DNA from: Shigella phage Sf14
Direction: 5' to 3' (one strand)
Sequence record: MF327003
DNA: 64,000 nucleotides
Below, in pieces: positions 931 to 52,067 of the stretch. Each line of letters begins with the position of its first letter. Positions within the stretch are counted from its first letter, which is position 1. The notes beneath the pieces are model-generated. The model saw only the letters and a list, made by a program, of their open reading frames with translations. It was not told where the DNA came from and did not search any database. The translations under genes and the position numbers were made by a program.

Positions 931-990
931 AGTACTTATCAACGGGGAGGGAATGACCTTCCCCAACAATCCTAAACTGGAGACTAGAAA

Positions 991-1254: not shown

Positions 1255-1319
1255 TATTACTTTCAACGGGGAGGGAGACTTCCCCACTAACCTAAATTCC
1301 TAAACTGGAGAATCTGAAA

Positions 1320-1571: not shown

Positions 1572-1585
1572 CAAGTCGCCGCAAC

Positions 1586-1635
1586 GGGGCAAATAGCCCC
1601 AGACACCTTTACAGCCCCTTAGATGGGGCTTTTTT
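1586..1635 (+). terminator. tandem hairpins; second (AGCCCC-TTAGAT-GGGGCT + TTTTT) is an intrinsic terminator
   Basis: GC stems at 1586-1600 and 1613-1630 followed by T5 run. Confidence 0.7.
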
Positions 1636-1639
1636 ACGT

Positions 1640-3135
1640 CTTCCTAGAATCTTACCAGACATTTAGAACAATAACTCTATAGCTTACTCTATATCCTCTT
1701 ATCAAATCAACTTAAATATAAGCCCATAACCCGAAAGGGAAGGGCAATCCCTAAAACGCTCTATAACGCTCTATACGGGCTTATCATCTCATCTTAAGCA
1801 ATCATATTAACCTACTCTTAAAAGCCCTTCATAGAGCTTTCTAGAGCCTTAAAAGAATCTTATAAGGGTATAAGCTTTATTATCTCGTTAGTATCTTGTG
1901 AATGGTTAAACAGGGGCTATGAGATAGGACTCTATCGAATCCTATTGATAATAGCTTTAAAGTATGCTATGGAATCTAAAAAGAGCCTTAAAAGTAACGT
2001 AAAAGTTAGCCCCCTTTACATTCTCTTAACAAAATCTTAACAAATGCTACATAGTTATGCTTATTAGAGACTTGTTAGCCCCTTGTTAAATCCTTGTTAG
2101 AGGTATGTTAAGAGCTTGTTAGACTCTTTGAAGTCCCTGTATAAGCCCCTAGAAAGCCCTATAAAGAGCTATACAGGTAGTTGGGGTGTAGTTACTAGGG
2201 AGAACCTTAGAAGAGGCTATACAGAGCTATACAGGGCTTTTAAGAGGGCTTTATAAAGAATCACTAAGAAGGTAAGGGAACTATAGACCAAGAGATAGTG
2301 ACCATGTTAAGAGACTGTTAAAAAGGTTTAGAACTTGTTAATTATCTTAACAAATAACTCTTAAGATTTAACTATTTAGCAACTTATAAGCAACTTGTTA
2401 GACCCTTGTTAGTAGTGTTACAGAATGGTTAAGCTCTTGTTAGTTCTGTTAAGAAACTGTTAAGAACTCTGAAGAGATGTTAAGAGCTTGAGAGAGTTGT
2501 TAAGAGATTGTTAATGATATTTTAAGATTTTGCAAAGGGGATGTTACAGGGCTGTTAAGGGCTACCAAGCAGATATACATCCTCTGTAGATATTTTTCAG
2601 ATTCTCCAAAGACCCCTAAATAAACACTACCTAGTCTATTTTATAAAAATTTTATAATTCTGAATAACTATCTATACACTATCTTATATAAAACAGGAAT
2701 TAACAGGCTTATAAGATACCTTGTTAGTACCGTGTTAGACCTTGTAGGATAAGCCTTAGAAGGGAATACCTGTTTAGTGTTATATAACAGTCTATATAGA
2801 GGCTTAGTAATACCTAGTGATTCTGCTATATAGGGTACTATCGTTTACCTAGAGATTAAGATGAGTATAGGGGCTTCTAAGGGGCTAGGAAGAGGTTAGG
2901 AAGGTGATTGTATAGGGTTGATTAATGGGAGGCTTAGAAGGCTTTATAGAGGGCTATATAGAGAGCACTATTTAGAGACTAAGAGGCTATATAGATACTG
3001 TATAATACTATATAGAGATGATGCTTAGAGAGGGTGTTTAGAAGGGTATAGATATTTTATCACATATCATGGTGACCCAAGATGAACGGAGTGAATCCCA
3101 AATTTTATAAAAATTATAAATTTCGTAAATTTTAC
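1640..3135. repeat. repeat-dense AT-rich non-coding region (TGTTAAGA / CTTGTTAG / CTATACAG / CTATATAGAG unit families)
   Basis: no ORF of 60 aa or more on either strand; many short direct repeats, densest 2060-2520 and 2930-3030. Confidence 0.7.
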
Positions 3136-3140
3136 TCAAT

Positions 3141-3161
3141 AAAAAGCCCCAATTAAGGGGC
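3141..3161 (-). terminator. intrinsic terminator for leftward unit
   Basis: GCCCC-AATTAA-GGGGC hairpin; on minus strand followed by U-run (A5 at 3141-3145). Confidence 0.65.
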
Positions 3162-3170
3162 TGTATAGTC

Positions 3171-3842
3171 TTACATCAATTCACTAAGCATGGCTTGCAA
3201 TGAAGTTTTAGAAGTCTGGAAGAAGTGTGTGAACCCATTATGACGTTCTCTTACCTGAATCATTATCTGGTCACCCTTAATCGGGTGTGAACTAATATGG
3301 TATTCATTCATGTTCAGTACAACACCCAAACCATCTATAATGTGTCTGAGTATGTCATATTCAACAAATTCTTCTTTACCTGTGACCTTGATACAAACAC
3401 CTTTGTTGGTTCTCTTAGGGTTTATATCTTCCATAACCAGCATTTGTTGTCCACCAAGAGAAATCATAGAGAACTCTTTACGGTTCTGCTGCTTAACATA
3501 CATCTCAAGTTTCTTCAAAGTATCTTCATAGAACGGATAAGACTTCTTGACAAAGACACCTTCAAGTGGCTCTTTACCTGAATCTTCTCGTTCCATCTTA
3601 AGTCGATTAACAAGTAAGTCTAAAGACCACTTCTCACTTTCGTCAAGATGTGTGTTGATATCATCTAGGCTAAGTACCAGATACTTTCTTTCAAGTTCAA
3701 ACTTTTTCATCTCTATCAAATCCTTAAAGCATTTCTTAGTAATTGCTTCCCATTCTTCGGAGTTCTTTCTCTTCCTCTTCAGATGGGGAACCATATCTGT
3801 CAAGTTCTTCCAACTCTTCTTCAGTAGGTGTCCCATAATCAC
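3171..3842 (-). CDS. hypothetical protein (223 aa)
   Basis: ORF track; last gene of leftward block. Confidence 0.6.
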   Translation of the reverse strand: MIMGHLLKKSWKNLTDMVPHLKRKRKNSEEWEAITKKCFKDLIEMKKFELERKYLVLSLDDINTHLDESEKWSLDLLVNRLKMEREDSGKEPLEGVFVKKSYPFYEDTLKKLEMYVKQQNRKEFSMISLGGQQMLVMEDINPKRTNKGVCIKVTGKEEFVEYDILRHIIDGLGVVLNMNEYHISSHPIKGDQIMIQVRERHNGFTHFFQTSKTSLQAMLSELM

Positions 3843-4273
3843 ATCTTAAGTTTGAAAGTGTTTTTACCATTGACCTGAATATATCCATCATTTTCAACTA
3901 TCCAGTGTGCGGTTGAGAATGCACTATATGCGTTTGCTTCACCATAACCAAGAAACTTACCATCACACACACTTTCAATATGTATTGTGCCTACTGGTTC
4001 ACCTGTATCCACGGTTTCTACAATATAGAGTGTGTTTAGCTTTATGGAACTAACTTTAGTCTCTTCTTTGAAGCATTCAGATAGGGACATATCAAGCCCT
4101 TCAGTTATTACAAATTGCATGTATGCTTCTGAGCACTCCCAGATAAAGCTATGAAGAAGAACCTTTGCAGCATGTCTTGAACAACCAAACTCTGCAACGA
4201 TATCTTTGTACATATCATCTTTAGTTCCGTTGTTAAGCAAAGCTTTACGCACTATCTCTTTAACATTCTTCAT
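3839..4273 (-). CDS. hypothetical protein
   Basis: ORF track; start trimmed to ATG at 4273 (MKNVKEIV) giving 14-nt overlap with upstream gene. Confidence 0.5.
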   Translation of the reverse strand: MKNVKEIVRKALLNNGTKDDMYKDIVAEFGCSRHAAKVLLHSFIWECSEAYMQFVITEGLDMSLSECFKEETKVSSIKLNTLYIVETVDTGEPVGTIHIESVCDGKFLGYGEANAYSAFSTAHWIVENDGYIQVNGKNTFKLKM

Positions 4274-4571
4274 CTTTCCAATCCTCATCTTTCCAATACT
4301 TATCTCTCTCAATCTGAAACTCATCAGGTAACTCTGCAATAGCTTTCAAGTAATAAGCTTCTTGAATGCTGCAAAGGTCTTCATAACCACCATTCATAAG
4401 CCAGTTGTAACCAGCAGGTACACCGTTATCATCACAGAACCCTGTGTAGAACATCGCTTTATGAATCATGTTAAGTGGCTTGTAAGCAACTTCAACGATA
4501 TAGAAAGTATTATCTTTCCAACCACCCTTTGGAGGGTGGATACCTTTAACGCCTCTGGATTGTGGAGTCAC
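4260..4571 (-). CDS. hypothetical protein (103 aa)
   Basis: ORF track. Confidence 0.5.
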   Translation of the reverse strand: MTPQSRGVKGIHPPKGGWKDNTFYIVEVAYKPLNMIHKAMFYTGFCDDNGVPAGYNWLMNGGYEDLCSIQEAYYLKAIAELPDEFQIERDKYWKDEDWKDEEC

Positions 4572-5023
4572 AGCTTTTCCTCAATAAGTGCTTTAACTGT
4601 CTCTACAGATAATTTACCAGACTTGATGTGTGGAATCAACAAAGCAATTGCTTTATCTACATCTTCAGAAACCTTTACAGCTTCTTTTAAGAAGGAATCC
4701 ATCAGATACTTGTAAGTGCTTGAGGCTCTTTCAAGGTAAACTCTGTTATAGTATTCCTCAGAGAGAACTTCTAAATCAAAATCATTATGTGAGCTATGAT
4801 GTTTACCACGAAACAGATACTCACCATTGAATGTTAAGCGTTCTCCAGATTGAAATGTCATATCCTCATCACAGCAGGTTTTTACAAAGGAGTTGTCAAT
4901 CCTTACAGCGATAGGGTATGCTGCTGAAGTGTATATCTCAGTGACTTCACCTTTTGCCATCACGGTCTTTGTGGCATAATCAACAACGACAACTTTCTGA
5001 CCTTCTTTCAATTTTAAACTCAT
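4568..5023 (-). CDS. hypothetical protein (151 aa)
   Basis: ORF track; 4-nt overlap with next gene. Confidence 0.6.
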   Translation of the reverse strand: MSLKLKEGQKVVVVDYATKTVMAKGEVTEIYTSAAYPIAVRIDNSFVKTCCDEDMTFQSGERLTFNGEYLFRGKHHSSHNDFDLEVLSEEYYNRVYLERASSTYKYLMDSFLKEAVKVSEDVDKAIALLIPHIKSGKLSVETVKALIEEKL

Positions 5024-5065
5024 TTTCGCTACCTCTAAACAGGGGCTTTCACACCCCTTGACAGA

Positions 5066-5275
5066 TTACTCTTCAACAGATTCTTTATCTTTCTTTGAAG
5101 AAGACTTTTTCTCTTTCTTCTTAGGCTCAGTTGCTGCAATAGCAATGTCAACAAGCTGTGCTAAGTCAGATTTAATCACTGTTACTGGTTGTTCATTGTA
5201 GAAACCTTTCTCAAGGTACTCTTTGAACTCTTCCAGAGTGTTAAAGCCAAAAGGCTTGACAGGTGTTCTAATCAT
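5066..5275 (-). CDS. hypothetical small protein with lysine-rich C-terminal tail
   Basis: ORF track. Confidence 0.45.
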   Translation of the reverse strand: MIRTPVKPFGFNTLEEFKEYLEKGFYNEQPVTVIKSDLAQLVDIAIAATEPKKKEKKSSSKKDKESVEE

Positions 5276-5345
5276 TTACCCTCCGAGATATCTTTTAAGA
5301 TTTTCTGGTTAATCATTTCCGCAATAGCATAGCGGATACAAACTA

Positions 5346-5852
5346 CTAAAATTTTAGGTTGCATTCTTTACTTACCTCTTCAAAATTCTTCTCAGACTCT
5401 ACAATTCTCTTCTTGTAAGTCGTCATTCTCCAACATGAGAGGATGATACCAACTATTGGAATCACATACAAGAACCAAATCTCAGAAATTTTCTTCTCAG
5501 CTTGGTTAAACGTTAAATCCTGCATGTACATGCCACCGAAGGAGATTACACAAATCATAGCAAGGAATACAGATAACATGATTGCTATCCCTGCCCACCC
5601 TCTTGTATTATGTTCAGCATTTCTACGCTTATTTTCAAGATTGATAAGTTCGTTGTAGTCTGCTGAGAAGTCTCTGTAGAAAGCTTTCAAGTACTCTCTG
5701 CTGTAACCTTCAAAGCATCCTGTACCAAACCAATTTTCACCTCCAAAGTGTGAAATAGTTCCTTCTTCACCGTTTGCTTTCACAATCTTGAAAGATACAT
5801 GGTGCTTAGATTGCTCATAAGAAATCTGGTCTCTTGAATCTTCATAAATCAT
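5346..5852 (-). CDS. hypothetical membrane protein (central TM segment)
   Basis: hydrophobic stretch GWAGIAIMLSVFLAMICVISFGGMY. Confidence 0.55.
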   Translation of the reverse strand: MIYEDSRDQISYEQSKHHVSFKIVKANGEEGTISHFGGENWFGTGCFEGYSREYLKAFYRDFSADYNELINLENKRRNAEHNTRGWAGIAIMLSVFLAMICVISFGGMYMQDLTFNQAEKKISEIWFLYVIPIVGIILSCWRMTTYKKRIVESEKNFEEVSKECNLKF

Positions 5853-6067
5853 TGTTCAATCCTCTTTAATCGTGCATTCCACTCTCTGTCAATCATTCTC
5901 TGGAATGTCTTACCTCTTGGAGTAACGTTCTTAAGTGATTCTTCAGTACATACTAAGATATCACCTCTGGCAAATTTGCCATAACACTGTTTAGTCTTCT
6001 TAGCTCGTCTGTACTGCTCAGAAACAGAGAGCTTCCAGTATTCACCTAGAGTTATAAACTTTTTCAT
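5849..6067 (-). CDS. hypothetical protein (72 aa)
   Basis: ORF track; 4-nt overlaps both sides. Confidence 0.5.
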   Translation of the reverse strand: MKKFITLGEYWKLSVSEQYRRAKKTKQCYGKFARGDILVCTEESLKNVTPRGKTFQRMIDREWNARLKRIEQ

Positions 6068-6804
6068 TCTTTCACCATTGCGTTGTAGAATTGCCTTTGA
6101 ATCTCTTCAGCAATCTGATAAGGTGTGAAACCAGCTTTTAACATCATTCTTACTGTGTACTCAATGTCATTCTTATTAACCACATGGTCTGTGACACTGA
6201 TTGCTTCTTTTAACTCTTCCACATTCTTTTTAGCATCTTCACAAGCGCTGGTCAACATGGAGTTAAATTTCTTTTGTGGTGTAGTCCAAGCATGACTATG
6301 TGGATTTGCATCACAGAAATACTTGAAGTAATCTCTGACGTTATCTACAACCAGAGTTTGATGGCCATCTTCTTTAGTTTGGTATCGAGACTCTTGCTCA
6401 GGTACATCTGCAAGTCTGTGTGTAGGAGCCTCTATAGTAACATCAATCGTTCTAACCTTTGGAGTTGCCTCTTTCTTCATAGTCGGAGTTGCCTCAAAAG
6501 TTGCCTTTTCAGTTTCTTCTTCATCCCCTACCACAGTATCTTGTAAAGAAATACCCAGAAGCTTTCTGAAGCTTCCTGTGAAGGTTAAGTTTTCAATATC
6601 AGTGGTCGAATAGACTTTACCAGCCCATAAGTGTGCTTCTGGACCAAGTGATGTTGCTGGATAAATCTTGAAATGTAATGTCTTCATAGGTCGGAAGTAC
6701 ACAACCCCGCTATCAGACACATACGTAACAAATGCCTTAGTTCTTTGGGCTGGTGAAGCCTTTACATAAATGTAAATTGTGTCTGTCTCTTTAACTTTAA
6801 CCAT
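6064..6804 (-). CDS. hypothetical protein (246 aa)
   Basis: ORF track. Confidence 0.6.
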   Translation of the reverse strand: MVKVKETDTIYIYVKASPAQRTKAFVTYVSDSGVVYFRPMKTLHFKIYPATSLGPEAHLWAGKVYSTTDIENLTFTGSFRKLLGISLQDTVVGDEEETEKATFEATPTMKKEATPKVRTIDVTIEAPTHRLADVPEQESRYQTKEDGHQTLVVDNVRDYFKYFCDANPHSHAWTTPQKKFNSMLTSACEDAKKNVEELKEAISVTDHVVNKNDIEYTVRMMLKAGFTPYQIAEEIQRQFYNAMVKE

Positions 6805-6874
6805 TTTATCTCTCCAATAAAAAAGGGAACCACCTTTCGATAGCTCCCATCATACAAAATTCTAGATATTACTG

Positions 6875-7468
6875 TCAAGTATATTTTCTAGGCAGTAACT
6901 TACTTTTTCTGCTTCGAACATCTTCAAGGATAGCTATGAAGTCATCAGAAGCACCCTTCCAAGGGCTGAAGTTTGGGATATGTTGACGAATAGCTTCAAT
7001 AATCGTCTTCATACCTGTGTTCTTCATCCACCAATCTGAGCTTGAGGCAGTCATAACAAAGAACTGCTCATCATCGGTTAAGATGACCTCTTTAGTGAAT
7101 GGGGAGGTGTACGTGGTGATAACTGAACCACCATTCATGTAATATGTACGCTTGTGGACTTTATCAAGCATATCATGTAGGTCACCAAACAGCTTCACAA
7201 CCTCTTGGTGGTTAATGTCTTTCTCAAGGTCTAAACGGTACTTCAGAAGTGCTTCATCAACTTCTTTAGATGAGAACTTAAAGTACTGCACATCTTCAAT
7301 GATACATGCAGAGATGTTGTTCACATCCATAGTCAATTTGACAACTTTTGCTGGTGAGTTAATGTTTGGCTGGAACGCAGCAAGCACACCCTGAACATTA
7401 CCGTAGTGTTGGACTAATGCAACTTGTGGAGAATCAACTCCACCATTTTCTTTAATGTTTACACCCAT
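6875..7468 (-). CDS. hypothetical protein (197 aa)
   Basis: ORF track. Confidence 0.6.
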   Translation of the reverse strand: MGVNIKENGGVDSPQVALVQHYGNVQGVLAAFQPNINSPAKVVKLTMDVNNISACIIEDVQYFKFSSKEVDEALLKYRLDLEKDINHQEVVKLFGDLHDMLDKVHKRTYYMNGGSVITTYTSPFTKEVILTDDEQFFVMTASSSDWWMKNTGMKTIIEAIRQHIPNFSPWKGASDDFIAILEDVRSRKSKLLPRKYT

Positions 7469-7469
7469 A

Positions 7470-7820
7470 CTATAACTTCCTCACTAAATACTTTTTAAGT
7501 GGTGTCTTCGGTTTTTCAAAGACCTCAATAGAATCTATTTTGATGCCCTCACCACGCATACCTGTGGATTGGTAGATGTAGAACTCAAGCATCCCTATAT
7601 TTTTAGCTGGCATATCATGCTTAACAAAGATGGTCACTGACTCTTCACTTTTAAAGATTACTGTACCGTCTTTATACACAAGCTTATCAGGTTGTTTATA
7701 GTCAAGCATATCAAACATCAGAAATAGTCTTTGCTGACATTTGTCCAGCCTTGATGACAGGGCTTCTTGTATATCTGCGAAATTCTTATAAACAACGATG
7801 TGGAGCTTAAGCATCTGCAT
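7470..7820 (-). CDS. hypothetical protein
   Basis: ORF track; start trimmed to internal ATG (about 7820) to limit overlap with upstream gene. Confidence 0.45.
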   Translation of the reverse strand: MQMLKLHIVVYKNFADIQEALSSRLDKCQQRLFLMFDMLDYKQPDKLVYKDGTVIFKSEESVTIFVKHDMPAKNIGMLEFYIYQSTGMRGEGIKIDSIEVFEKPKTPLKKYLVRKL

Positions 7821-8100
7821 ATTCTCTGACGAAGAAGTAGTTGATTTTGTTATCGGACACCAGAAGGTCATAGCAAGTAATCTCGAACTTATTCTTTTCA
7901 GCATCATAGCTGGTGTATGGCTCAGAAACTTGCTTTGTTGACACTTTTGGGTTATTAGGGTTTAAAAGGCCACCATAAAGTTTCTTAATGGCCTTTGTTG
8001 CCACACTCCAGATAACATCATCAGTGAGTTCTTCGTACAGGTCAAACTCGGCTTCATAGCTGAAGTCATTAATTGGAAAGATAACCTGTACTTTACTCAT
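7807..8100 (-). CDS. hypothetical protein (97 aa)
   Basis: ORF track. Confidence 0.5.
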   Translation of the reverse strand: MSKVQVIFPINDFSYEAEFDLYEELTDDVIWSVATKAIKKLYGGLLNPNNPKVSTKQVSEPYTSYDAEKNKFEITCYDLLVSDNKINYFFVREYADA

Positions 8101-8101
8101 A

Positions 8102-8470
8102 TCAAACTACCTGTGTAACTTGCAACGCTTCTGTTACGGAGATATCACCTACTTTTTCTTCTTTGATGAAGGTGAAGGTTAGAAGAGTTGTCTTCGGAAC
8201 CTCATCTTCCAGAGGTACACCATTAAGTTCATCAAAGATAGCTTGCGTAGTCCAATCTTCTTGACCATCTGGGTAGTGGTAGGTATATAACGGGAAATCA
8301 ACACTACACCAACCGAAAACAGGGCAACCATCTTCATCATCACGTACACGACGTAGCTCATTGTCAGACTTTGTAAAACGAAGAAAAAGCTCCCCATCAC
8401 GTTCATAGATGGAAGCATCATCTAATTCCCGATATGAAGTGTCAACTTTGACTTGAATCTCTTTATTCAT
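8102..8470 (-). CDS. hypothetical protein
   Basis: ORF track; start trimmed to ATG 8470 (MNKEIQ) giving 8-nt overlap. Confidence 0.5.
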   Translation of the reverse strand: MNKEIQVKVDTSYRELDDASIYERDGELFLRFTKSDNELRRVRDDEDGCPVFGWCSVDFPLYTYHYPDGQEDWTTQAIFDELNGVPLEDEVPKTTLLTFTFIKEEKVGDISVTEALQVTQVV

Positions 8471-8873
8471 AATAACCTCTCTCAGCTTTCTCAATTTTAT
8501 CCAGAAGTTTGATACACTCATTGTTATGGCATGTAGCCTCACTCTGGTGTAACTTCTTCTTCTGCTCAAGTAGAAATTTATAGTAACCTGATAGCTGCTC
8601 TCTTGTCAAGGGGTGCTCTGAAATAATATCAAGAGAGCTTTCACCTAAAGGTGAGAACATGCCATTGTCATCCACATTGTACAGTTCACCAGCAAAGAAA
8701 CCTTTGTTAGCCATTGTGATAGGTGAGCGTTCAATGACCTCAACAACAAACTTTGTGAACACCTTATCTCCCATCGTAATCAACTTGGTTCCTGCAATAC
8801 GAACCTTCATACCACTTCTTGTGTACTTGAAAGTACCATTATCATCTGCCCAAAGCTTCATAGTTTTCTCCAT
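8463..8873 (-). CDS. hypothetical protein (136 aa)
   Basis: ORF track. Confidence 0.55.
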   Translation of the reverse strand: MEKTMKLWADDNGTFKYTRSGMKVRIAGTKLITMGDKVFTKFVVEVIERSPITMANKGFFAGELYNVDDNGMFSPLGESSLDIISEHPLTREQLSGYYKFLLEQKKKLHQSEATCHNNECIKLLDKIEKAERGYYE

Positions 8874-8877
8874 AGAA

Positions 8878-8901
8878 ATAAAAAAGGCTCCCGAAGGAGC
8901 C
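8878..8901 (-). terminator. intrinsic terminator after endolysin gene
   Basis: GGCTCC-CGAA-GGAGCC hairpin with A-run on plus strand (U-run on minus transcript). Confidence 0.6.
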
Positions 8902-8911
8902 TCTTAATCTA

Positions 8912-9376
8912 CTATTTTGGATAAACAGCGTCAAGGTAAATCTTGGCTTCCAAACTACGTCTATTTTGTAGACCCTTGGAAGTTACTTTTTGACCATTCA
9001 CTGTAATCTTGTTCCACCACTGCATAGCTTCTGCACAACCAACTTTATTACCAGCATTGTGACGCTTGATAAAAGTTGAATCCTGCATAGCATTGATACC
9101 AATGTTGTAAGTCTCTACAACAAGTGCATCAAACTCATTCTGAGTAGTTGGAACCTTGATTGTTTTGTTTACTGCACCTACATAGTTCTCAACATCTGCA
9201 AGGAGATATTGTTCAGCTTGCTCGGCAGTAATCTTCATCCCCATCGTAACAGGTCTTCCGTTGATACGAATTGTACCATAACCAATTGTAGGGATTCCAG
9301 CAGAGTCTTTATAGGCTTCTAAACGAAGCCCTTCAAAGAACTTAATGGCTTCTAAGCCTTTACTTGAGAGTTGCAT
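8912..9376 (-). CDS. endolysin, T4 lysozyme-like (GH24) muramidase
   Basis: N-terminal EGLRLEAYKDSAGIPTIGYGT matches the T4 lysozyme catalytic Glu/Asp/Thr region. Confidence 0.85.
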   Translation of the reverse strand: MQLSSKGLEAIKFFEGLRLEAYKDSAGIPTIGYGTIRINGRPVTMGMKITAEQAEQYLLADVENYVGAVNKTIKVPTTQNEFDALVVETYNIGINAMQDSTFIKRHNAGNKVGCAEAMQWWNKITVNGQKVTSKGLQNRRSLEAKIYLDAVYPK

Positions 9377-9384
9377 TATTCACC

Positions 9385-42193: not shown

Positions 42194-42388
42194 ATGCCAA
42201 CCATTCTAGCAATCCTCATGAAAAACCTTGGGGCATTCTTTTGGAAGCTTCTTTTTTCTCTTCTCAGTGAATACATGATTGAAAAAGTGTTCTTTAAGCT
42301 TGCAAGATACCTTGCGAGTAAAACAGATACACCTATTGATGATGAATTTGTAGATACCTTGGAAAAGGCTTTTAAAGGTGAGAAATAA
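42194..42388 (+). CDS. small membrane protein (64 aa)
   Basis: N-terminal hydrophobic segment ILAILMKNLGAFFWKLLFSLL. Confidence 0.5.
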   Translation: MPTILAILMKNLGAFFWKLLFSLLSEYMIEKVFFKLARYLASKTDTPIDDEFVDTLEKAFKGEK

Positions 42389-42762
42389 TGAAGTGGCTTG
42401 AAGATGCTTTTAAGAATAATATTGGTGCAATCGTTGTAGGTATTTTCAGTGTAATTGGTATGTACACTACAATGCAGGTCTCTGATGGTAAACAGGAAGT
42501 GTCTATCACAAATAAGTTACAGCAGTTGGATGGTTACTCAAAAGGTAACTATTCAGCTATTCGTGACTTACAATCTGATATGAAGCTCCTACAATTAGGG
42601 ATGGAGAACCAGAAAGTTCAGCTAGAGAATGTTAAGGGAGAAAACGCTAAGTTGACTAAGACCCTTGATAAGTTCTCTGACAGTGTTAACAACTTAGCAC
42701 AATCTGTATCAGCTTTGCAAGCAATTACAGAACAAAATACCCAAAGCACTAAAAAGAAATAA
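42388..42762 (+). CDS. membrane-anchored coiled-coil protein (124 aa)
   Basis: N-terminal TM IGAIVVGIFSVIGMYTT then heptad-rich region. Confidence 0.5.
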   Translation: MKWLEDAFKNNIGAIVVGIFSVIGMYTTMQVSDGKQEVSITNKLQQLDGYSKGNYSAIRDLQSDMKLLQLGMENQKVQLENVKGENAKLTKTLDKFSDSVNNLAQSVSALQAITEQNTQSTKKK

Positions 42763-45530: not shown

Positions 45531-45874
45531 TTGATATCCTCATTTTTAAACACAAAAGTTGTGTAGTTGTGACCGTCAACATCTAACCAGACAGCCTTGA
45601 CTTCAACACCATCTAGGTTCTCTGACAACTCTTTGATGAAGTGGTCTCGTACCTTTTTGGCACTGGTGGTTTCAAGTTTGATGTTAGAGATTGCAGAGCC
45701 AATTGCCATATAACCTCTTACACGGTTTGCTTCAGTATGCTTCATACCACCAGTTGTGTAAACCTCTTTCAAGGTCTCCAGAATTGCATTACCATAAAGC
45801 TTCTCTGCTGGAGTTGGTTTACTATAGAAGCCAATTGCAAAGTTATCGTTAAAGATTGCATTTTCACGTTTCAT
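45515..45874 (-). CDS. hypothetical protein (119 aa)
   Basis: ORF track. Confidence 0.5.
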   Translation of the reverse strand: MKRENAIFNDNFAIGFYSKPTPAEKLYGNAILETLKEVYTTGGMKHTEANRVRGYMAIGSAISNIKLETTSAKKVRDHFIKELSENLDGVEVKAVWLDVDGHNYTTFVFKNEDIKCLFP

Positions 45875-45875
45875 A

Positions 45876-46175
45876 TTAATCTGCCAGCCTTAAGTTAAAA
45901 TTTACACCAAGTTTTGTACAAGCATTAAGCATGTACTCTAAAGAAATCTTTTGAGGGTCGTTAATGATATTTGATACACGACTCTGTGAGATTTCACAAA
46001 CAGTTGCTACTTGAGCCTGAGAAAGTTTTAGCTTCTCAATCTCTTTAGAGAATCTGAAAGATACAAAGTCTTTCATCTCTTCTATATCCATTGGACAGAC
46101 ATAACTCTCCATTTCAGCCTCTCTATCAGCCTCCCAAGAATCTTGAGGTGCATATGGGTCAAAGACTTCATTCAT
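45876..46175 (-). CDS. helix-turn-helix (XRE-like) DNA-binding protein
   Basis: LSQAQVATVCEISQSRVSNI resembles Cro/C1-type HTH. Confidence 0.5.
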   Translation of the reverse strand: MNEVFDPYAPQDSWEADREAEMESYVCPMDIEEMKDFVSFRFSKEIEKLKLSQAQVATVCEISQSRVSNIINDPQKISLEYMLNACTKLGVNFNLRLAD

Positions 46176-46371
46176 CTTTCTTTCTCCGTTTTCGAGAAGT
46201 GTCTATTAACGAATCAAGATTAGTTGCTCTGACGTTTTCACGAGTCCCATTAATGTAGTTATCTAAAGACTCTACAACGGTTGCAAAATCATTAGCCCAA
46301 ACTCTGTAAATAACTACTCCGTCATCATCGACCACTTCACCATAGTCTGTTCTACAGATGTTCTTCCTCAT
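46168..46371 (-). CDS. hypothetical protein (67 aa)
   Basis: ORF track. Confidence 0.45.
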   Translation of the reverse strand: MRKNICRTDYGEVVDDDGVVIYRVWANDFATVVESLDNYINGTRENVRATNLDSLIDTSRKRRKKDE

Positions 46372-46373
46372 GA

Positions 46374-46754
46374 TTATAAACCCATGCAGTGACGATTTTC
46401 AATAAAGTATTGAACACCTTTGAAAGACTCACGCATAAAGTTGTCTTTCACATCTTCTACAGTCTCAATACCTTTGCTATCAAGAAGGTCAACGTTCTGA
46501 GTGACCATCTCATCTGCTAATCTGTCATAGTAATCTCCCATAAAATGGTAGTTGTAGTCAACCATCTTATCAGTCATTTCTTGAACAGTCTGAGCAGACA
46601 ACGGTTTAGTCAACTCTCCAGCATTTGAAGCGATTTTCTGTACAATCTTACAAGATTCTAAAGCAACACCATTAAAGTTTGCTTCAGGCATCTTCATAGC
46701 TGCTGCACTAAAACTCATACCAAGAGCAACAATACCAACAAGTAACTTTTTCAT
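46374..46754 (-). CDS. secreted/periplasmic protein (signal peptide)
   Basis: N-terminal MKKLLVGIVALGMSFSAAA signal-like sequence. Confidence 0.55.
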   Translation of the reverse strand: MKKLLVGIVALGMSFSAAAMKMPEANFNGVALESCKIVQKIASNAGELTKPLSAQTVQEMTDKMVDYNYHFMGDYYDRLADEMVTQNVDLLDSKGIETVEDVKDNFMRESFKGVQYFIENRHCMGL

Positions 46755-46995
46755 AACTACCTCCGAGGTTTCTGACGGGTTCCTATATAATTTTCTATAT
46801 AGGTAGTATACCCGTCAGGTTACTCATGTCAACAACTTTATACTAAATACATTCTAACTGCTGCATTCACTGCAAATGATAACAGAGTAAGGGCTAAGGC
46901 TGCTTTGTATGTTATACTTAACAGTTTACTTATGAAGTAAGATAATGATAAAACAACAAAAACAAACAGGATAATTGTACTAAACATACTAACCT

Positions 46996-48096
46996 CTATT
47001 CATAGTCTCGAATTACTAGCCCAACAGGGAACTGTAAAGAACCCTTACGAGTCATCTTCTGGAACTGAACCGTTAAAGGTTTCCCGATAAATTCTTCAGG
47101 ATGTTCAGCAAGATACTGTTTCTTCTCGTGTGTAGTTTTCCATGAAACATCTACAAAGACGTTAGGAAGAGTCTCTACAACGAACTTACCATGACCACGT
47201 TTATCAGTCTTTACACCAGTTACTTTAAATTCCTGTGTGTGCATCTTCTTGTGCTTAATCAGGAAGTAAGAGCGATGACCACACTCATAGAACGAATCTG
47301 GTGAGATTGACCGATACATTGCCCCTTCAAACTTGAGTTTAACCCAATTGTCATGAGCATTATCAAATTCTTCCCAAGAGTTAACACGGATTGTCTGAAC
47401 AGGTACAACCCTGCAAGCATCACCGAGTTCAACGATTGGTGAATTATCAATAACTTCACGACGCTCAGGCCAAGATTTAGTCTTGTCACAGATATCATAC
47501 CAGTAGAATTTAAGAAGGTGACGGTCTGGATTGTCAGCATTCTTAATCATAGACACAATATCTTCCAAGTCCCAACCATGAGCATAAATCTCACCGTCGA
47601 AATCTTCAACATCTTTGTGCAGTTTCAGCATAAGAAGAACATCAGGAATCAACTCTACAGGAATGTTGTATACCGTGTTCTCACGAGAGTATGCTGTAAA
47701 ACTTTCTGAGTCAGCATCTCTTGAAATCCTGCAACGAACCCCGTCAAGTTTAGGTTGAGCATCGGCAGGGAATACCAGATACTTCTTGTGACTTATCTTG
47801 GAAGCATCCTGAGCAAGCTGTACACCAACCTTCTCAACATTCTCTGCTTCAGACTTTGTGTAAGCATACCCTTTACGGTCAACCTGCTTCTTGTACTTAG
47901 CAGCAACTTCAAAGAGAGCTTGCTGTTCAGCATTACGCTCATTCTTCTTACCGATGTTCTTAGGTTCTGCTGTGTACTCTTCAAACATCATCTTGCCATT
48001 TTCTTTACCATAAGTTGTGACGACTTTATCACCTACAGCAACACATGACCAGACGTTGAAAGAACCATCTTTATTTTGTTTGTACAGAATTGTCAT
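46996..48096 (-). CDS. ATP-dependent DNA ligase
   Basis: KxDG adenylation motif in PKLDGVRC; size 366 aa typical of T7-type ligase. Confidence 0.8.
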   Translation of the reverse strand: MTILYKQNKDGSFNVWSCVAVGDKVVTTYGKENGKMMFEEYTAEPKNIGKKNERNAEQQALFEVAAKYKKQVDRKGYAYTKSEAENVEKVGVQLAQDASKISHKKYLVFPADAQPKLDGVRCRISRDADSESFTAYSRENTVYNIPVELIPDVLLMLKLHKDVEDFDGEIYAHGWDLEDIVSMIKNADNPDRHLLKFYWYDICDKTKSWPERREVIDNSPIVELGDACRVVPVQTIRVNSWEEFDNAHDNWVKLKFEGAMYRSISPDSFYECGHRSYFLIKHKKMHTQEFKVTGVKTDKRGHGKFVVETLPNVFVDVSWKTTHEKKQYLAEHPEEFIGKPLTVQFQKMTRKGSLQFPVGLVIRDYE

Positions 48097-48187
48097 TTAT
48101 TACGTGCCTCACAAGCTAGACAACCTTTTGTGAAAAATGAGTGCCAAGAGCACCCTCCAAAATCTTCAGAGATGATACGTAAGACTC

Positions 48188-48445
48188 TCATTGCCACTTA
48201 CCTTTTAAATACACATTTACAACTTGGTGGTCATAGCCATCTTTAAGTTTATGCTTGACCTCTTCAACTCTGTAGTTCCAATCATTAATCTCAACAGTCT
48301 CCCCTTCTCGTGGAATAACTGGATTGCGTTGAGCTACAGTCATAGTGCTGAAGATGTTTTCATACTTATAGATAAAGTTTACTAGAACCTGCATATCAAT
48401 ATCCTTCATCAAAAACTGTGGTGTGTGACTGACTATTCTTCCCAT
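48188..48445 (-). CDS. hypothetical protein (85 aa)
   Basis: ORF track. Confidence 0.45.
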   Translation of the reverse strand: MGRIVSHTPQFLMKDIDMQVLVNFIYKYENIFSTMTVAQRNPVIPREGETVEINDWNYRVEEVKHKLKDGYDHQVVNVYLKGKWQ

Positions 48446-48641
48446 ACTTGTAAGAAGTTGTCGTCTGAGAATTTGGGCAGCGAACTACAATAACATCTCT
48501 GCTAGTGGCATCACCATTAAGCTTGTAAATCTTACAGTCTTGCATTTCTGGAGGAAGTCTGTAAGAAGCATCCTTGTTCTCATAAGAAGGGTTGCACCCC
48601 ACCAGTAGGACCGCTAAAGCTGGTATCAATAATTTTAACAT
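48396..48641 (-). CDS. small lipoprotein (81 aa)
   Basis: lipobox LLVGC after hydrophobic signal MLKLLIPALAV. Confidence 0.55.
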   Translation of the reverse strand: MLKLLIPALAVLLVGCNPSYENKDASYRLPPEMQDCKIYKLNGDATSRDVIVVRCPNSQTTTSYKYGKNSQSHTTVFDEGY

Positions 48642-48651
48642 TTTAAACCTC

Positions 48652-48918
48652 TCAATAAAATAAATCTGAAGCTTTTGAATTTACAGGATTCAAAGAACCT
48701 TCGTAATGTTCTTCATAACCCTCTTGGCAGATATTATACAGTTCTTTGAATCGGGTTTCATCAACTGGTTTAACATCTTTCTTAGCGCATAAGAAGAGAT
48801 ACCAATCATACCCCAAATCTCTGCACCAAGCCTCTGAGACAAAAGCTATTGATTTGTCTTCGCTCTTGAAGATTACTAAAGCTTCTTGCTCTTTATTGCT
48901 CATTTTTGGTGTCTCCAA
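48652..48918 (-). CDS. hypothetical acidic protein (88 aa)
   Basis: ORF track. Confidence 0.5.
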   Translation of the reverse strand: METPKMSNKEQEALVIFKSEDKSIAFVSEAWCRDLGYDWYLFLCAKKDVKPVDETRFKELYNICQEGYEEHYEGSLNPVNSKASDLFY

Positions 48919-49109
48919 AATTCAATATCAATAAGTTCCTGTGCAATACTCTTCAGATTCCCTTTCAAGAAAACCTTTTCAGAGTTAGGTAGGCTTGCAT
49001 TATCAATGAGTCTATTCATTCTGTCAAAAAGAGTTTTCTTCCGATTCTTGATAGTCTCTTTTGAAGCCCCTTGCATCATGGCAAGATGAGTTCTTCCACG
49101 ATGGCTCAT
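48900..49109 (-). CDS. hypothetical basic protein (69 aa)
   Basis: ORF track. Confidence 0.45.
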   Translation of the reverse strand: MSHRGRTHLAMMQGASKETIKNRKKTLFDRMNRLIDNASLPNSEKVFLKGNLKSIAQELIDIEFWRHQK

Positions 49110-49306
49110 AGACGTTCACCTTTAAGGTAGCCTGTCTTATCCTTGATAATCTTGCCCCCAGCGATAAAAATATCAACCTTGAAAAGATTTTCATTAGAAA
49201 GCTTGAGGTGCTTATGGCTACTGCAAATGATGATGCACATAGATTCAATCTCACTTTGAGAGTATCCAGCACATTGCAGTTGAACTTCAATTTCTGAAAT
49301 AGTCAT
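49106..49306 (-). CDS. hypothetical protein (66 aa)
   Basis: ORF track. Confidence 0.45.
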   Translation of the reverse strand: MTISEIEVQLQCAGYSQSEIESMCIIICSSHKHLKLSNENLFKVDIFIAGGKIIKDKTGYLKGERL

Positions 49307-49367
49307 ACAAGTCTCCTATACAATATAGAGTATAAGGTACTCTTCCATGAGCACCTTGTCAACACTA

Positions 49368-52067
49368 TTAGTGGACTTCAAGCCACGATTTACCAACTTT
49401 CCCTGCACCTGTGACCAATGTCTCTTTTCTTAGCCCAAGGTTCTTAGATGCTTGACCATAATACCAGTCAGTTACTGCTTTCACATCTGCTGTCATGCTC
49501 TCTGGACATTCCCAGCTTGTTTCATCGTGGTAAGCACAGAGTAAGCGAGCACCAATAGCTGGTTTACGACCATTCAACTTCATCAAACCTTCGTCAATCA
49601 TACGACGACATGCAAGGTTGATTGCTTCATTCTGAACTTGTGCTTCTGAACCCATCAGCAAATAGTTCAAGAGTTTGTGTGGAGACTTACACCACAGCCA
49701 AGCCCCAGCAACCTTCACAAAACCACCTTTAGAGATTGCAGCAGTCTTACCAAACACCTCTTCAAGTGCTTTCTTAGTTGCTTTGAAATCAGCTTCCAAG
49801 TTGTCTAACAGTTTCTTAATCTTCGGTAAACGCACAAAGTAAGTCTGCTTAGTCAATGCACCTTCCTGAGTAGTTGCTGCTTTAATTGTTTTAGCAAACT
49901 TCTCATCACCTGCACCGAACAACAGGGCATAGATACCATTCTTAGCTTTCTTACGTCCCTTGCTAATCTCATGAAGAAGATTCTCATCCTGAGTAGCACG
50001 ACAAGTCAAGATATCTTGCTCATCATTAAGGCTGAAGTAGATACTGTTCAGGGTGTGAGCATCAGTCCCTGAGTAAACTACGTACAAATCGTTTTCAGAG
50101 TCATAACGCAGATACTTGTCAATCTCTGGATTCAGATACTGGTCAAAGTGTTTGCAGTAGTATCTTCCATCCTCTTGACGAACAAACTCAATCTCTTCTT
50201 TACCCTCTGTTACCGCTTTGGTGAAGTCTTTATCACCCATGAAGTTACAGAGTAGTACAAGCTGTGCAGAGTTCATATCAACAGATACTACGTTGGTTCC
50301 CTCTTCACAAATCCACACTGCCCTCATTGGTTCACCGTACACGGCAGCACCGGAAGGTACGTTCACAATACCATACTGAGTCATACGTCCAGTAGAAGTG
50401 CCAAACACCATTGCACCTGCACTCAAACGACCATCTGGACGAATCTGGTTCAGCCAACCTTTCTCATCATCCTTTGAGTTCTCAATAGTCCTGCGTCGGT
50501 GCATCAAAGTATAGTACTTTGCAATCTTCTGTCCAAGCTCACCTTCGATTGTATCATAAGAAGATTCTGTAAGCTTTGGTGAAGTCCTAATCAAGCAAGG
50601 CTCAAGCACATCTGTGTACTTCTTAACAGACCAGTTATGCTCAATGTAATAGACGCCTTCATGCTCAATATAGCTCAACCCACAACGTTCAACCATCTCA
50701 TCCCACTTAGGATGTTTGCGAATCATCTTTTTATTGTCTTTGAATCTGCAAACCTTGATAGGACGACCATCAGAATCTTTTTTATAGTTCCAATCATCAG
50801 GAATCCAACCAACAGACTTTAAGTAATCCTTCACCACAGCTACCTGAGTCATTCGTGAAACTTCAAACTCAATTGGTGTAAATGGTGCATCAATCAAACC
50901 AGTGTAGCGACTAGACTCTAACTCGAAGTGGTTAACAACGTGAACATTGTAGTACTTCACAGTTTTCACAGTCTTAACTGGCTTCCAATCTTTACACTTC
51001 TTGCCAATCTTCTCATTCAGTTCATTACAAACTGCACGAGCATCTTTCATTGCTACAAAACCTTCAGGGTACTCTTCTTTTGTTACCGTGTTAGTTGGAG
51101 TGTAGCAGTTGCGTTTCTCAACATTAAAAATCTTTGTAGTTGGCTTTCCATACGGCTTGATAGGGTACTGCTTCAACTCACCTTCACGCATCTGTTCACG
51201 ATACTTTGTCTTAGGGTACTTGGTAATCCTTTTTAAACCGTCAACGTGACCAAATGTATCTACATACTCGTTCCAAGACTTGGCAAATTCTTCACCTGTA
51301 ACTTTACCTTTTGTCTTAATAGTTGGTGGAAGGTGTGGTTCAACCTCAGCAGCCAACTCATTAGTTAACTTGTCAAGTTCTTTAACGTGGAACTGCATAA
51401 GTTCTACATCAGCTTTCCAACCGTTGATAGCTTGCTGACTCATCCAGAAGGATGTTTCTTTAGCTCGCATGTAGGTTTCATAAGTGTCAACACCACACTT
51501 CTTAAGCTTGAGGTACTCATTATCAAGAGCACGTTTAGTTTTGGCGTTAATCTTAATATCTTCTACAACACGAGTAAGAATCTCTGCATTCCAGACACCC
51601 CACTCTTCAATCTCTGGTTTACGGACACCTACACGAGCACCCCATGCAGCCAAACCATGAGCACCTTTGTAACCTTTTGGCGTAGGTCTATCCATCCACT
51701 GTACGCGAGATTGGATAAGTGAATCCTGAAAGAAGTCACTCCAAGGCTTACACTTAGGGTTCTCAAAGTTCCACAGGTCAGGTGCAATGTGATTAAACAC
51801 CCACCAGTCATAACCCAAACCATTGTGGATGCAAAGGCGTTTAGCTTTCAGTGCAAACTCAACACCTTCACGCAGACCACCTTTGATGTATTTTGTATAC
51901 TTGTGACCAAGAATAGGCTCATCAGTGAAAACCCACACAGCAGGTTCATCACTGTCATCTTTATAGTCTGCGAAAGCCATTACGTGTGCTTTTGTAAACT
52001 CAAGGAGCAACCCATCAGTTTCTGTATCACCAACCAAATGTAATTTTTCGAAATCTACATTGTCCAT
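49368..52067 (-). CDS. DNA polymerase, family A (T7 gp5-like) with 3'-5' exonuclease domain
   Basis: Exo I LVGDTETDG; HNGLGYD; motif A VDMNSAQL, motif B RKKAKNGIYALLFGAG, motif C YHDE. Confidence 0.9.
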   Translation of the reverse strand: MDNVDFEKLHLVGDTETDGLLLEFTKAHVMAFADYKDDSDEPAVWVFTDEPILGHKYTKYIKGGLREGVEFALKAKRLCIHNGLGYDWWVFNHIAPDLWNFENPKCKPWSDFFQDSLIQSRVQWMDRPTPKGYKGAHGLAAWGARVGVRKPEIEEWGVWNAEILTRVVEDIKINAKTKRALDNEYLKLKKCGVDTYETYMRAKETSFWMSQQAINGWKADVELMQFHVKELDKLTNELAAEVEPHLPPTIKTKGKVTGEEFAKSWNEYVDTFGHVDGLKRITKYPKTKYREQMREGELKQYPIKPYGKPTTKIFNVEKRNCYTPTNTVTKEEYPEGFVAMKDARAVCNELNEKIGKKCKDWKPVKTVKTVKYYNVHVVNHFELESSRYTGLIDAPFTPIEFEVSRMTQVAVVKDYLKSVGWIPDDWNYKKDSDGRPIKVCRFKDNKKMIRKHPKWDEMVERCGLSYIEHEGVYYIEHNWSVKKYTDVLEPCLIRTSPKLTESSYDTIEGELGQKIAKYYTLMHRRRTIENSKDDEKGWLNQIRPDGRLSAGAMVFGTSTGRMTQYGIVNVPSGAAVYGEPMRAVWICEEGTNVVSVDMNSAQLVLLCNFMGDKDFTKAVTEGKEEIEFVRQEDGRYYCKHFDQYLNPEIDKYLRYDSENDLYVVYSGTDAHTLNSIYFSLNDEQDILTCRATQDENLLHEISKGRKKAKNGIYALLFGAGDEKFAKTIKAATTQEGALTKQTYFVRLPKIKKLLDNLEADFKATKKALEEVFGKTAAISKGGFVKVAGAWLWCKSPHKLLNYLLMGSEAQVQNEAINLACRRMIDEGLMKLNGRKPAIGARLLCAYHDETSWECPESMTADVKAVTDWYYGQASKNLGLRKETLVTGAGKVGKSWLEVH

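What the first reader, a model, noticed from the sequence alone, without database searches (positions are those of the whole stretch)
46374..48641. Secreted protein and small lipoprotein inside the leftward replication block (candidate superinfection-exclusion factors)
46374-46754 encodes a protein with a classical signal peptide. 48396-48641 encodes an 81-aa protein with a lipobox (LLVGC). Small phage lipoproteins are known to block the phage's own receptor to prevent superinfection. Neither gene is near the lysis genes, which argues against a spanin role.
Basis: partly seen in the sequence, partly recalled or inferred. Interest (0 to 1): 0.4.

Follow-up and report, generated by a model that had tools for sequence, protein, structure and literature searches.

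The report
Two exported early phage proteins
A Felix-O1-type Shigella phage makes one secreted helical protein and one small lipoprotein from its replication-gene block; both genes are real and conserved, but neither resembles any known superinfection-exclusion factor, so that role stays a guess.

Summary
Both observations hold. The 126-aa ORF (46374-46754, minus strand) has a Sec-type signal peptide (AAA|M). The 81-aa ORF (48396-48641, minus strand) has a lipobox (LLVG|C16, Asn at +2). The window is a Mooglevirus (Ounavirinae) genome, 100% identical to Shigella phage Sf16 across the finding. There the two genes are gp71 and gp75, both annotated as hypothetical.

gp75 belongs to PHROG 902 / Pfam DUF4884, a large family of unknown function (1257 clusters at 50% identity). 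It occurs in virulent phages of Escherichia, Vibrio, Acinetobacter, Erwinia, Klebsiella and Aeromonas. The lipid Cys and two further Cys are invariant. The gene always stands alone among early or DNA-metabolism genes and is never next to a receptor-binding gene.

gp71 (PHROG 4332) occurs only in Ounavirinae. It is predicted with confidence as a three-helix periplasmic bundle with two invariant Cys.

Profile comparisons with T5 Llp, T1 Cor and T4 Spackle align only the signal peptides. A spanin role is excluded, because Sf16 has its own overlapped Rz/Rz1-like pair elsewhere.

Ounavirinae are reported to use LPS, so blocking of the phage's own receptor in the Llp manner is unlikely. The best guess is an envelope-directed early accessory function, possibly exclusion independent of the receptor. 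This is an ordinary finding of modest interest.

The parts
46374..46754 (-). gp71-like CDS, 126 aa: a secreted periplasmic protein specific to Ounavirinae (PHROG 4332)
   Evidence: ORF. 100% identical to Sf16 gp71. PHROG 4332 full-length match, E 9.9e-65. Found only in 257 Ounavirinae records. AF2 pLDDT 87.8 with helices at 30-44, 54-85 and 93-120.
46698..46754 (-). Signal peptide of gp71 (residues 1-19), with predicted SPase I cleavage at AAA|M
   Evidence: Sequence. Kept across homologs although its sequence diverges. pLDDT below 50 for residues 1-16.
46805..46832 (-). Sigma-70-like promoter (TTGACA, 16 nt, TATACT) in the 241-bp ligase-gp71 spacer. It probably starts the gp71 -> gp70 -> HTH regulator unit.
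   Evidence: 11 of 12 consensus matches. Invariant in Sf16, Mordin and a metagenomic relative. Promoter-like sites are not enriched in the region overall, so this is an inference.
48396..48641 (-). gp75-like CDS, 81 aa: a small lipoprotein of the DUF4884 / PHROG 902 family
   Evidence: ORF. PHROG 902, E 6.7e-17. All homologs carry a precomputed PF16225:DUF4884 hit. 1257 cluster representatives at E<=1e-3.
48594..48641 (-). Lipoprotein signal peptide with lipobox L-V-G-C16; the Cys codon is at 48594-48596
   Evidence: Sequence. Only credible lipobox ORF in the window. Lipobox present in 247 of 250 family members. Pfam LPAM_1 hit in 10 of 53 members.
48399..48596 (-). Mature lipoprotein, 66 aa, Asn at +2. 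Beta-rich, with invariant C36 and C55 (C-P-N motif) and near-invariant K68.
   Evidence: Alignments. AF2 gives 4-5 strands but is low-confidence, pLDDT 61.7.

Best explanation
These are two independent accessory genes of an Ounavirinae phage. Each sends a small, disulfide-containing protein into the host cell envelope while the DNA-replication genes are expressed.

gp71 (inferred pathway):
- It is exported by Sec and cleaved by signal peptidase I.
- It folds in the periplasm into a soluble three-helix bundle of about 107 aa. The invariant Cys35 and Cys123 probably form a disulfide between helix 1 and the C-terminal tail.

gp75 (inferred pathway):
- It is lipidated on Cys16 and cleaved by signal peptidase II.
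- There it would sit as a 66-aa beta-rich domain on a tether of about 10 residues, stapled by the invariant C36-C55 pair.

Most likely mechanism (inference, not shown):
- Each protein binds a periplasm-facing envelope component that is conserved across many Gram-negative hosts, rather than this phage's specific receptor.
- The effect would be to condition the envelope of the infected cell. The leading possibility is superinfection exclusion at a step after adsorption, or protection of the wall and outer membrane from attack from outside until programmed lysis.

Shown versus inferred:
- Shown: export signals, family membership, distribution and gene context.
- Inferred: cellular location, disulfides, expression timing and function.

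The confidence of 0.35 refers to the functional mechanism. For the anatomy (real genes, exported proteins, family membership, not spanins, not Llp/Cor/Sp family members) my confidence is about 0.9.
For: - Export signals are present and conserved.
- Both proteins keep exactly two Cys in the mature part, as expected for proteins that fold in the oxidising periplasm.
- gp71 gives a confident helical model. gp75 gives a small beta domain.
- gp75 lies in the DNA polymerase-ligase gene string, and gp71 lies behind a conserved promoter-like site ahead of an HTH regulator, DHFR and thymidylate synthase. This fits expression before the late genes.
- DUF4884 genes in Vibrio, Acinetobacter, Erwinia, Klebsiella, jumbo coliphage and metagenomic phages all lie among early or DNA-metabolism genes. 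They share no neighbour. That points to a self-sufficient protein with a host-side target common to these hosts.
- Known exclusion lipoproteins (Llp, Rtp45) have the same general build: about 6 kDa, one disulfide, beta hairpin, bound at the periplasmic face of the outer membrane.
- In the T4-like phage Acj61, the DUF4884 gene occupies the slot two genes upstream of 61.1-61. In T4 that slot holds the exclusion gene sp. Sp homologs were detected mainly in phages of enterobacterial hosts.
Against: - No member of either family has a tested function. I found no paper on them.
- There is no sequence or fold similarity to Llp, Cor, Spackle or anything in PDB or BFVD.
- The gp75 model has low confidence.
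- 23% of DUF4884 members have Asp at +2. In E. coli that residue would favour retention in the inner membrane, so a uniform outer-membrane location is uncertain.
- Expression timing is inferred from gene neighbourhood only.
- The Acj61/T4 positional match lies in a hyperplastic region and is weak evidence.
Confidence: 0.35

Rival explanations
1. gp75 is an Llp/Cor/Rtp45-type exclusion lipoprotein. It binds the periplasmic face of the phage's own outer-membrane receptor and allosterically prevents adsorption of sister phages.
For: It has the same general build as Llp, Cor and Rtp45: a lipobox, a mature domain of about 60-66 aa, two Cys and beta-rich structure. One jumbo-phage homolog is annotated 'Cor superinfection exclusion protein'.
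Against: - That annotation rests on a weak PHROG 1119 hit (E about 1e-3; 0.054 for gp75) that lies mainly over the signal peptide and the start of the mature region.
- hhalign against T5 Llp aligns only 18 signal-peptide columns. Against T1 Cor it aligns 42 columns, with no conserved mature motif matched.
- The gene is not adjacent to any tail-fibre or receptor-binding gene in about 12 contexts, unlike llp and cor.
- The mature domain is 35-45% identical across phages of Vibrio, Acinetobacter and Enterobacterales, which cannot share a specific receptor.
- Felixounavirus phages are reported to depend on LPS, with no outer-membrane protein receptor assigned.
Confidence: 0.08
2. A lysis-related role. 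gp75 is a second o-spanin or spanin-like outer-membrane factor, or gp71 is a secreted antiholin of the T4 RI type that binds the periplasmic part of the holin and sets lysis timing.
For: - gp75 gives a weak PHROG 456 'Rz-like spanin' hit, E 0.016.
- The phage encodes rIIA and rIIB.
- The annotated holin (42388-42762) has one N-terminal membrane helix and a long extracytoplasmic coiled-coil-like tail that a periplasmic partner could bind.
- The gp71 signal core is rich in Gly, Ala and Ser.
Against: - Sf16 already has an Rz-like i-spanin with an overlapped lipobox ORF.
- gp75's neighbours have no membrane helix, so there is no i-spanin partner.
- The mature gp75 has only 4 Pro in 66 residues and a conserved folded-domain motif, unlike Rz1-type o-spanins. 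That contrast rests on my knowledge of lambda Rz1.
- DUF4884 genes stand alone in all contexts examined.
- Both genes sit in replication gene strings, not late ones.
Confidence: 0.12
3. A counter-defence or host-physiology role unrelated to exclusion. For example, the proteins might inhibit an envelope-located abortive-infection or protease system, peptidoglycan-remodelling enzymes, or vesicle shedding, to keep the infected cell productive.
For: - The genes lie in early accessory positions, stand alone and have a wide host range.
- The family is very large and fast-diverging, as is typical of arms-race genes.
- The single hit in bacterial genomes (Hylemonella) lies in an island-like region next to an HTH regulator and nuclease-like genes.
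Against: There is no similarity to any PADLOC model or to any characterised inhibitor. There is no linked gene that hints at a target. The evidence is purely circumstantial.
Confidence: 0.2
4. The ORFs, or their export signals, are chance features without function.
For: None beyond the lack of annotation.
Against: - gp71 is syntenic and conserved in 257 Ounavirinae genomes down to 33% identity.
- gp75 belongs to a family with 1257 cluster representatives, with invariant Cys residues and a lipobox in 99% of members.
- Ribosome-binding sites are present.
Confidence: 0.01

Closest known systems
Pfam DUF4884 (PF16225) / PHROG 902, a family of small lipoproteins of unknown function
   Same: gp75 is a member. 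PHROG 902 gives E 6.7e-17. Precomputed PF16225 hits are recorded on every homolog. The family signature is present: lipobox Cys, Y-x-L-P, D-C, V-V-R-C-P-N-S-x-T and G-K.
   Different: Nothing separates gp75 from the family, and no member has a known function. The local Pfam-A copy returned no PF16225 hit for any member. This discrepancy is unexplained.
T5 Llp, T1/phi80 Cor and Rtp45 superinfection-exclusion lipoproteins
   Same: All are phage-encoded lipoproteins with a mature domain of about 60 aa, two Cys and beta-rich structure, acting (for the known ones) at the periplasmic face of the outer membrane.
   Different: The mature domains show no similarity. gp75 is not encoded beside a receptor-binding gene. 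Its family spans phages with unrelated receptors and hosts. The host receptor class for Ounavirinae is reported as LPS.
T4 Spackle (Sp, gp61.3), a periplasmic inhibitor of the incoming tail lysozyme
   Same: gp71 is also a small, early, Sec-exported, Cys-containing periplasmic protein. In Acj61 the DUF4884 gene sits in the slot where T4 has sp.
   Different: Neither gp71 nor gp75 shows sequence similarity to Sp. Sp does not appear among the listed fold hits for gp71.
Rz1-type o-spanins
   Same: Both are small phage lipoproteins with a lipobox.
   Different: gp75 has no partner i-spanin gene next to it, is not Pro-rich and lies in a replication gene string. The phage has a separate Rz/Rz1-like overlapped pair.

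Membership tests
DUF4884 / PHROG 902 (gp75) | Significant profile match over the whole mature domain | tested here: met
   PHROG 902 E 6.7e-17, residues 1-76. Precomputed PF16225:DUF4884 hits on all 120+ homologs. However, the local Pfam-A hmmscan gave no PF16225 hit.
DUF4884 / PHROG 902 (gp75) | Family signature: lipobox Cys plus two invariant Cys (D-C and R-C-P-N) and G-K | tested here: met
   C16, C36 and C55 are invariant, and P56 and K68 are at least 90% conserved, in 53 diverse members. A lipobox is present in 247 of 250.
PHROG 4332 (gp71) | Full-length profile match | tested here: met
   E 9.9e-65, residues 1-126 against 1-126 of the profile. Syntenic in Felix O1-type phages.
Llp/Cor/Rtp45-type exclusion lipoproteins (gp75) | Lipoprotein signal and a small disulfide-containing mature domain | tested here: met
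   The disulfide itself is inferred from the invariant Cys pair.
Llp/Cor/Rtp45-type exclusion lipoproteins (gp75) | Homology of the mature domain to Llp or Cor | tested here: not met
   hhalign against T5 Llp aligns 18 signal-peptide columns only. Against T1 Cor it aligns 42 columns with no motif match. PHROG 1119 gives E 0.054. PDB entry 8a60_B (Llp) gives E 5.1 over the signal peptide only.
Llp/Cor/Rtp45-type exclusion lipoproteins (gp75) | Gene encoded next to the receptor-binding or tail-tip genes | tested here: not met
   gp75 lies between DNA polymerase and ligase. Homologs lie in early or replication regions in about 12 contexts. For contrast, see T5 and T1.
Llp/Cor/Rtp45-type exclusion lipoproteins (gp75) | Blocks adsorption through an outer-membrane protein receptor of the same phage | not testable with these tools
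   The literature states that Felixounavirus phages recognise LPS or O-polysaccharide moieties and that no protein receptor has been assigned. An experiment is needed.
o-spanin (gp75) | Gene embedded in, overlapping or adjacent to an i-spanin gene with an N-terminal membrane helix | tested here: not met
   Neighbours gp76 and gp74 have no hydrophobic helix. The true pair is at Sf16 record 82038-82545: i-spanin PHROG 1152, E 5.5e-38, with an overlapped lipobox ORF.
T4 Spackle (gp71) | Sequence or fold similarity to Sp | tested here: not met
T4 Spackle (gp71) | Inhibits the tail-associated lysozyme of the superinfecting phage | not testable with these tools
   This needs a biochemical assay. Sf16 does encode a second lysozyme-like protein, gp114, which could be tested.

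The most novel reading that the evidence does not exclude
DUF4884 lipoproteins, of which gp75 is one, are a widespread and so far unrecognised class of phage envelope effectors. Made early by virulent phages of many Gram-negative genera, they would dock on a conserved outer-membrane machine or a peptidoglycan-linked component and make the infected cell refractory to any further phage entry. This would be receptor-independent superinfection exclusion, functionally replacing Spackle in phages that lack it.
Probability: 0.15. Interest if true: 0.6.

Novelty: new member of a known kind. Interest (0 to 1): 0.3.

Why it matters
If DUF4884 lipoproteins have a common host target, one experiment on gp75 would assign a function to more than a thousand protein clusters in virulent phages of Escherichia, Shigella, Salmonella, Klebsiella, Acinetobacter, Vibrio, Erwinia and other Gram-negative hosts. 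It could also expose a conserved weak point of the Gram-negative envelope. Exclusion factors matter for phage-cocktail design too, because a phage that shuts the door behind itself can antagonise its cocktail partners. As things stand, these are two conserved hypothetical proteins with good export signals and no functional evidence.

Tried and rejected
- **Family scans.** Pfam, NCBIfam and PADLOC scans of both proteins gave nothing significant.
- **Solved structures.** Sequence and profile searches of PDB for both families matched only signal peptides or chance hits.
- **gp75 fold search.** The AF2 model had low confidence (pLDDT 62) and Foldseek against PDB found nothing at E<0.7. This says little, because the experimental Rtp45 structure also differed from its prediction.
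- **Direct comparisons.** hhalign against T5 Llp, T1 Cor and T4 Sp showed signal-peptide similarity only.
- **Conserved neighbours.** A search for a conserved neighbour of DUF4884 genes across 7 phage loci found none.
- **Fused domains.** Longer family members carry only low-complexity or coiled-coil tails.
- **Bacterial genomes.** The first scan attempt failed for lack of a conserved stretch. The second, using the pattern [LIV][YI]VVRCPNS, gave one locus, in Hylemonella. That pattern is too strict to say anything about abundance in bacteria.
- **Literature.** Searches on Mooglevirus or Felix O1 lipoproteins and exclusion, on DUF4884, and on 'phage-encoded lipoprotein' found nothing relevant.
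- **gp75 as the missing o-spanin.** I considered this because the Sf16 'o-spanin' as annotated lacks a lipobox. I rejected it after finding the upstream ATG that restores MKKLRQSLLMIVLLSLMSGC.
Full report
**Identity of the window.**
- Positions 45800-49400 are 100% identical to Shigella phage Sf16 (MF158043.1; Mooglevirus, Ounavirinae, the Felix O1 group).
- Over 15.9-64 kb the window is 99.3-99.6% identical to Sf16. The first 16 kb are mosaic, so the window comes from Sf16 or a very close relative.
- In Sf16 the two ORFs of the finding are gp71 and gp75, both 'hypothetical protein'.
- They lie in the minus-strand block that runs from thymidylate synthase and DHFR through an HTH regulator, ATP-dependent DNA ligase and several small ORFs to the family-A DNA polymerase.

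**Observation check.**
- The 126-aa ORF (46374-46754, minus strand) starts MKKLLVGIVALGMSFSAAA|MKMPE. It has a GGAGG site 5 nt upstream.
- Homologs keep a positively charged N-terminus, a hydrophobic core and a valid -3/-1 site even though the residues change. Two Cys (C35, C123) are invariant down to the 33%-identical Felix O1-type gp86.
- The 81-aa ORF (48396-48641, minus strand) starts MLKLLIPALAVLLVG|C16-N.
- Among 1602 ORF/start combinations in all six frames of the window, only this ORF and one spurious 35-aa ORF pass a strict lipobox filter.
- In relatives the signal peptide varies (LLVGC, FLTGC, FLAGC, FLSGC) while the Cys and the mature domain are conserved.
- Both observations are therefore real and well beyond chance.

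**What gp75 is.**
- It matches PHROG 902 (unknown function, E 6.7e-17). All homologs retrieved carry a precomputed Pfam hit named PF16225:DUF4884. The local Pfam-A copy did not reproduce that hit, which I cannot explain.
- tblastn finds the family in 572 phage records. Besides Ounavirinae these include 114-kb Vibrio phages, the T4-like Acinetobacter phage Acj61, Acinetobacter ME3, jumbo Asteriusvirus and Eneladusvirus phages and Klebsiella Stephanstirmvirinae. The homolog search adds Aeromonas, Yersinia and Serratia phages.
- An exhaustive profile search finds 1257 cluster representatives (50% identity) at E<=1e-3 and 703 at E<=1e-10.
- In a 53-member alignment the lipid Cys, C36 and C55 are invariant. 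P30, P56 and K68 are nearly so. The signature is Y-x-L-P ... D-C ... V-V-R-C-P-N-S-x-T ... G-K.
- 247 of 250 members have a lipobox. The median mature length is 67 aa. The +2 residue varies: D 23%, E 18%, T 16%, S 13%, N 10%.
- AF2 gives a small beta domain at low confidence (pLDDT 61.7). It has no PDB match.

**Context of DUF4884 genes.**
- In seven phage loci the lipoprotein gene is the only gene shared.
- In about twelve contexts it sits among small early ORFs or DNA-metabolism genes: origin-binding protein, helicase and ligase; primase gene 61; topoisomerase and thymidylate synthase; RNA ligases; or just before the terminase or after the capsid gene.
- It is never next to a tail fibre or receptor-binding gene.
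- One strict-pattern scan of 185,579 bacterial species genomes gave a single locus, in Hylemonella.

**What gp71 is.**
- It matches PHROG 4332 full length (E 9.9e-65).
- It is detected only in 257 Ounavirinae records.
- It always lies between the ligase and a 67-aa ORF plus the Cro/CI-type HTH regulator, including in Felix O1-type phage FO1a.
- AF2 gives a confident three-helix bundle (pLDDT 87.8; helices 30-44, 54-85, 93-120) after a disordered signal peptide.
- A near-consensus promoter-like site (TTGACA, 16 nt, TATACT; 46832-46805) lies in the conserved 241-bp spacer upstream.

- **Spanin role.** This is correctly rejected, but the distance argument is weak because the lysis genes are scattered: endolysin at 8912-9376, annotated holin at 42388-42762. 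The decisive point is that Sf16 has an Rz-like i-spanin (PHROG 1152, E 5.5e-38). It also has an overlapping 88-aa ORF that begins MKKLRQSLLMIVLLSLMSGC once the upstream ATG is used. gp75 has no neighbour with a membrane helix.
- **Llp/Cor-type exclusion, sequence evidence.** PHROG 'Cor' (1119) gives E 0.054, a match dominated by the signal peptide. hhalign of the family profile against T5 Llp and T1 Cor aligns the signal peptide and little else. The PDB entry for Llp matches at E 5.1 over residues 1-19. The 'Cor' label on one jumbo-phage homolog rests on such a weak hit.
- **Llp/Cor-type exclusion, context evidence.** llp lies divergently beside the receptor-binding gene oad in T5, and cor lies beside the tail genes in T1. 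gp75 does not. Felixounavirus phages are reported to recognise LPS or O-polysaccharide, and no protein receptor has been assigned. The known exclusion lipoproteins, by contrast, act on the periplasmic face of a protein receptor.
- **Spackle-like role.** Neither protein resembles T4 Sp.

**Most likely mechanism.**
- What is shown: two unrelated, conserved, exported small proteins, encoded in replication-gene strings, each with an invariant Cys pair. One is a lipoprotein whose mature domain is conserved across phages of very different hosts.
- From this I infer that each acts in the periplasm on something common to many Gram-negative envelopes, not on a phage-specific receptor.
- The build of gp75 (short tether, about 7 kDa, one disulfide) matches proteins known to dock on the periplasmic side of outer-membrane complexes.
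- Receptor-independent exclusion or envelope protection during the latent period is my leading guess, at about 0.3-0.4.
- A weak positional hint supports this. In Acj61 the DUF4884 gene sits two genes upstream of 61.1-61, the position of sp in T4. Sp homologs were detected mainly in phages of enterobacterial hosts.
- Rivals are a counter-defence or host-physiology role (about 0.2), a lysis-timing role (about 0.12) and an Llp-like block of the phage's own receptor (about 0.08).

**Novelty and score.**
- Both genes are already deposited and belong to catalogued families of unknown function. The finding adds no new kind of element.
- The useful outcomes are the negative membership tests, the demonstration that DUF4884 is a very large family of stand-alone phage lipoproteins, and a corrected view of the lysis genes.
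- Interest is 0.3.

Noticed in passing
window 46838-46987 (-): An unannotated 49-aa ORF lies between the ligase and gp71 (MFSTIILFVFVVLSLSYFISKLLSITYKAALALTLLSFAVNAAVRMYLV). It has two hydrophobic segments and a GAGG motif upstream. It matches PHROG 22006 (E 2.2e-7) and stays open in Mordin and a metagenomic relative. It is probably a real small membrane protein missing from the Sf16 and Mordin annotations.
   Followed up: partly
window 46772-46818 (-): A perfectly conserved 47-nt nested palindrome (CTGACGGGT..CCTATATA-GAAAAT-TATATAGG..ACCCGTCAG) has a left arm that overlaps the -10 element of the promoter-like site upstream of gp71. It could be an operator, or a processing or termination hairpin for read-through from the ligase operon. 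The whole 241-nt spacer folds with a z-score of -2.6.
   Followed up: partly
L007 28280-28546 (Sf16 record 82279-82545), outside the window: The Sf16 'putative o-spanin' gp118 is annotated from a GTG at record position 82351 and so lacks a signal peptide. Starting at the ATG at 82279 gives an 88-aa protein with a lipobox (LMSGC) that overlaps the 3' end of the Rz-like i-spanin. The deposited start is probably wrong.
   Followed up: yes
window 42388-42762 (+): The gene annotated 'holin' (124 aa) has a single N-terminal membrane helix followed by a long polar, coiled-coil-like tail, and it falls in a PHROG of unknown function (4038). Its topology resembles a type II membrane protein more than a classical holin, so the holin assignment looks unverified.
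   Followed up: no
window 1-16000: The window is not collinear with Sf16 at its left end. Identity drops to 91-95% in blocks and there are insertions or deletions, with the coordinate offset shifting between 1878 and 2794. The source is a mosaic close relative of Sf16 rather than the deposited record.
   Followed up: partly
L005 2956-3207 (Acinetobacter phage Acj61) versus L020 4759-5052 (T4 sp): In the T4-like phage Acj61 the DUF4884 lipoprotein gene lies two genes upstream of 61.1 and primase gene 61. In T4 that position holds the exclusion gene sp. Sp homologs were detected mainly in phages of enterobacterial hosts.
   Followed up: partly
gp75 family, P0001-P0257: The protein database's precomputed Pfam column assigns PF16225 (DUF4884) to every family member. 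However, hmmscan against the local Pfam-A copy gives no PF16225 hit for any of 53 members, even at E<=10 for a subset.
   Followed up: partly
L016 6980-7258 (Hylemonella gracilis ATCC 19624 contig): This is the only bacterial-genome hit to the strict DUF4884 motif. It is a 92-aa lipoprotein in a region with a Cro/CI-like regulator, a secreted nuclease/phosphatase-like ORF and a large coiled-coil ATPase-like ORF, possibly a defence or mobile island.
   Followed up: no
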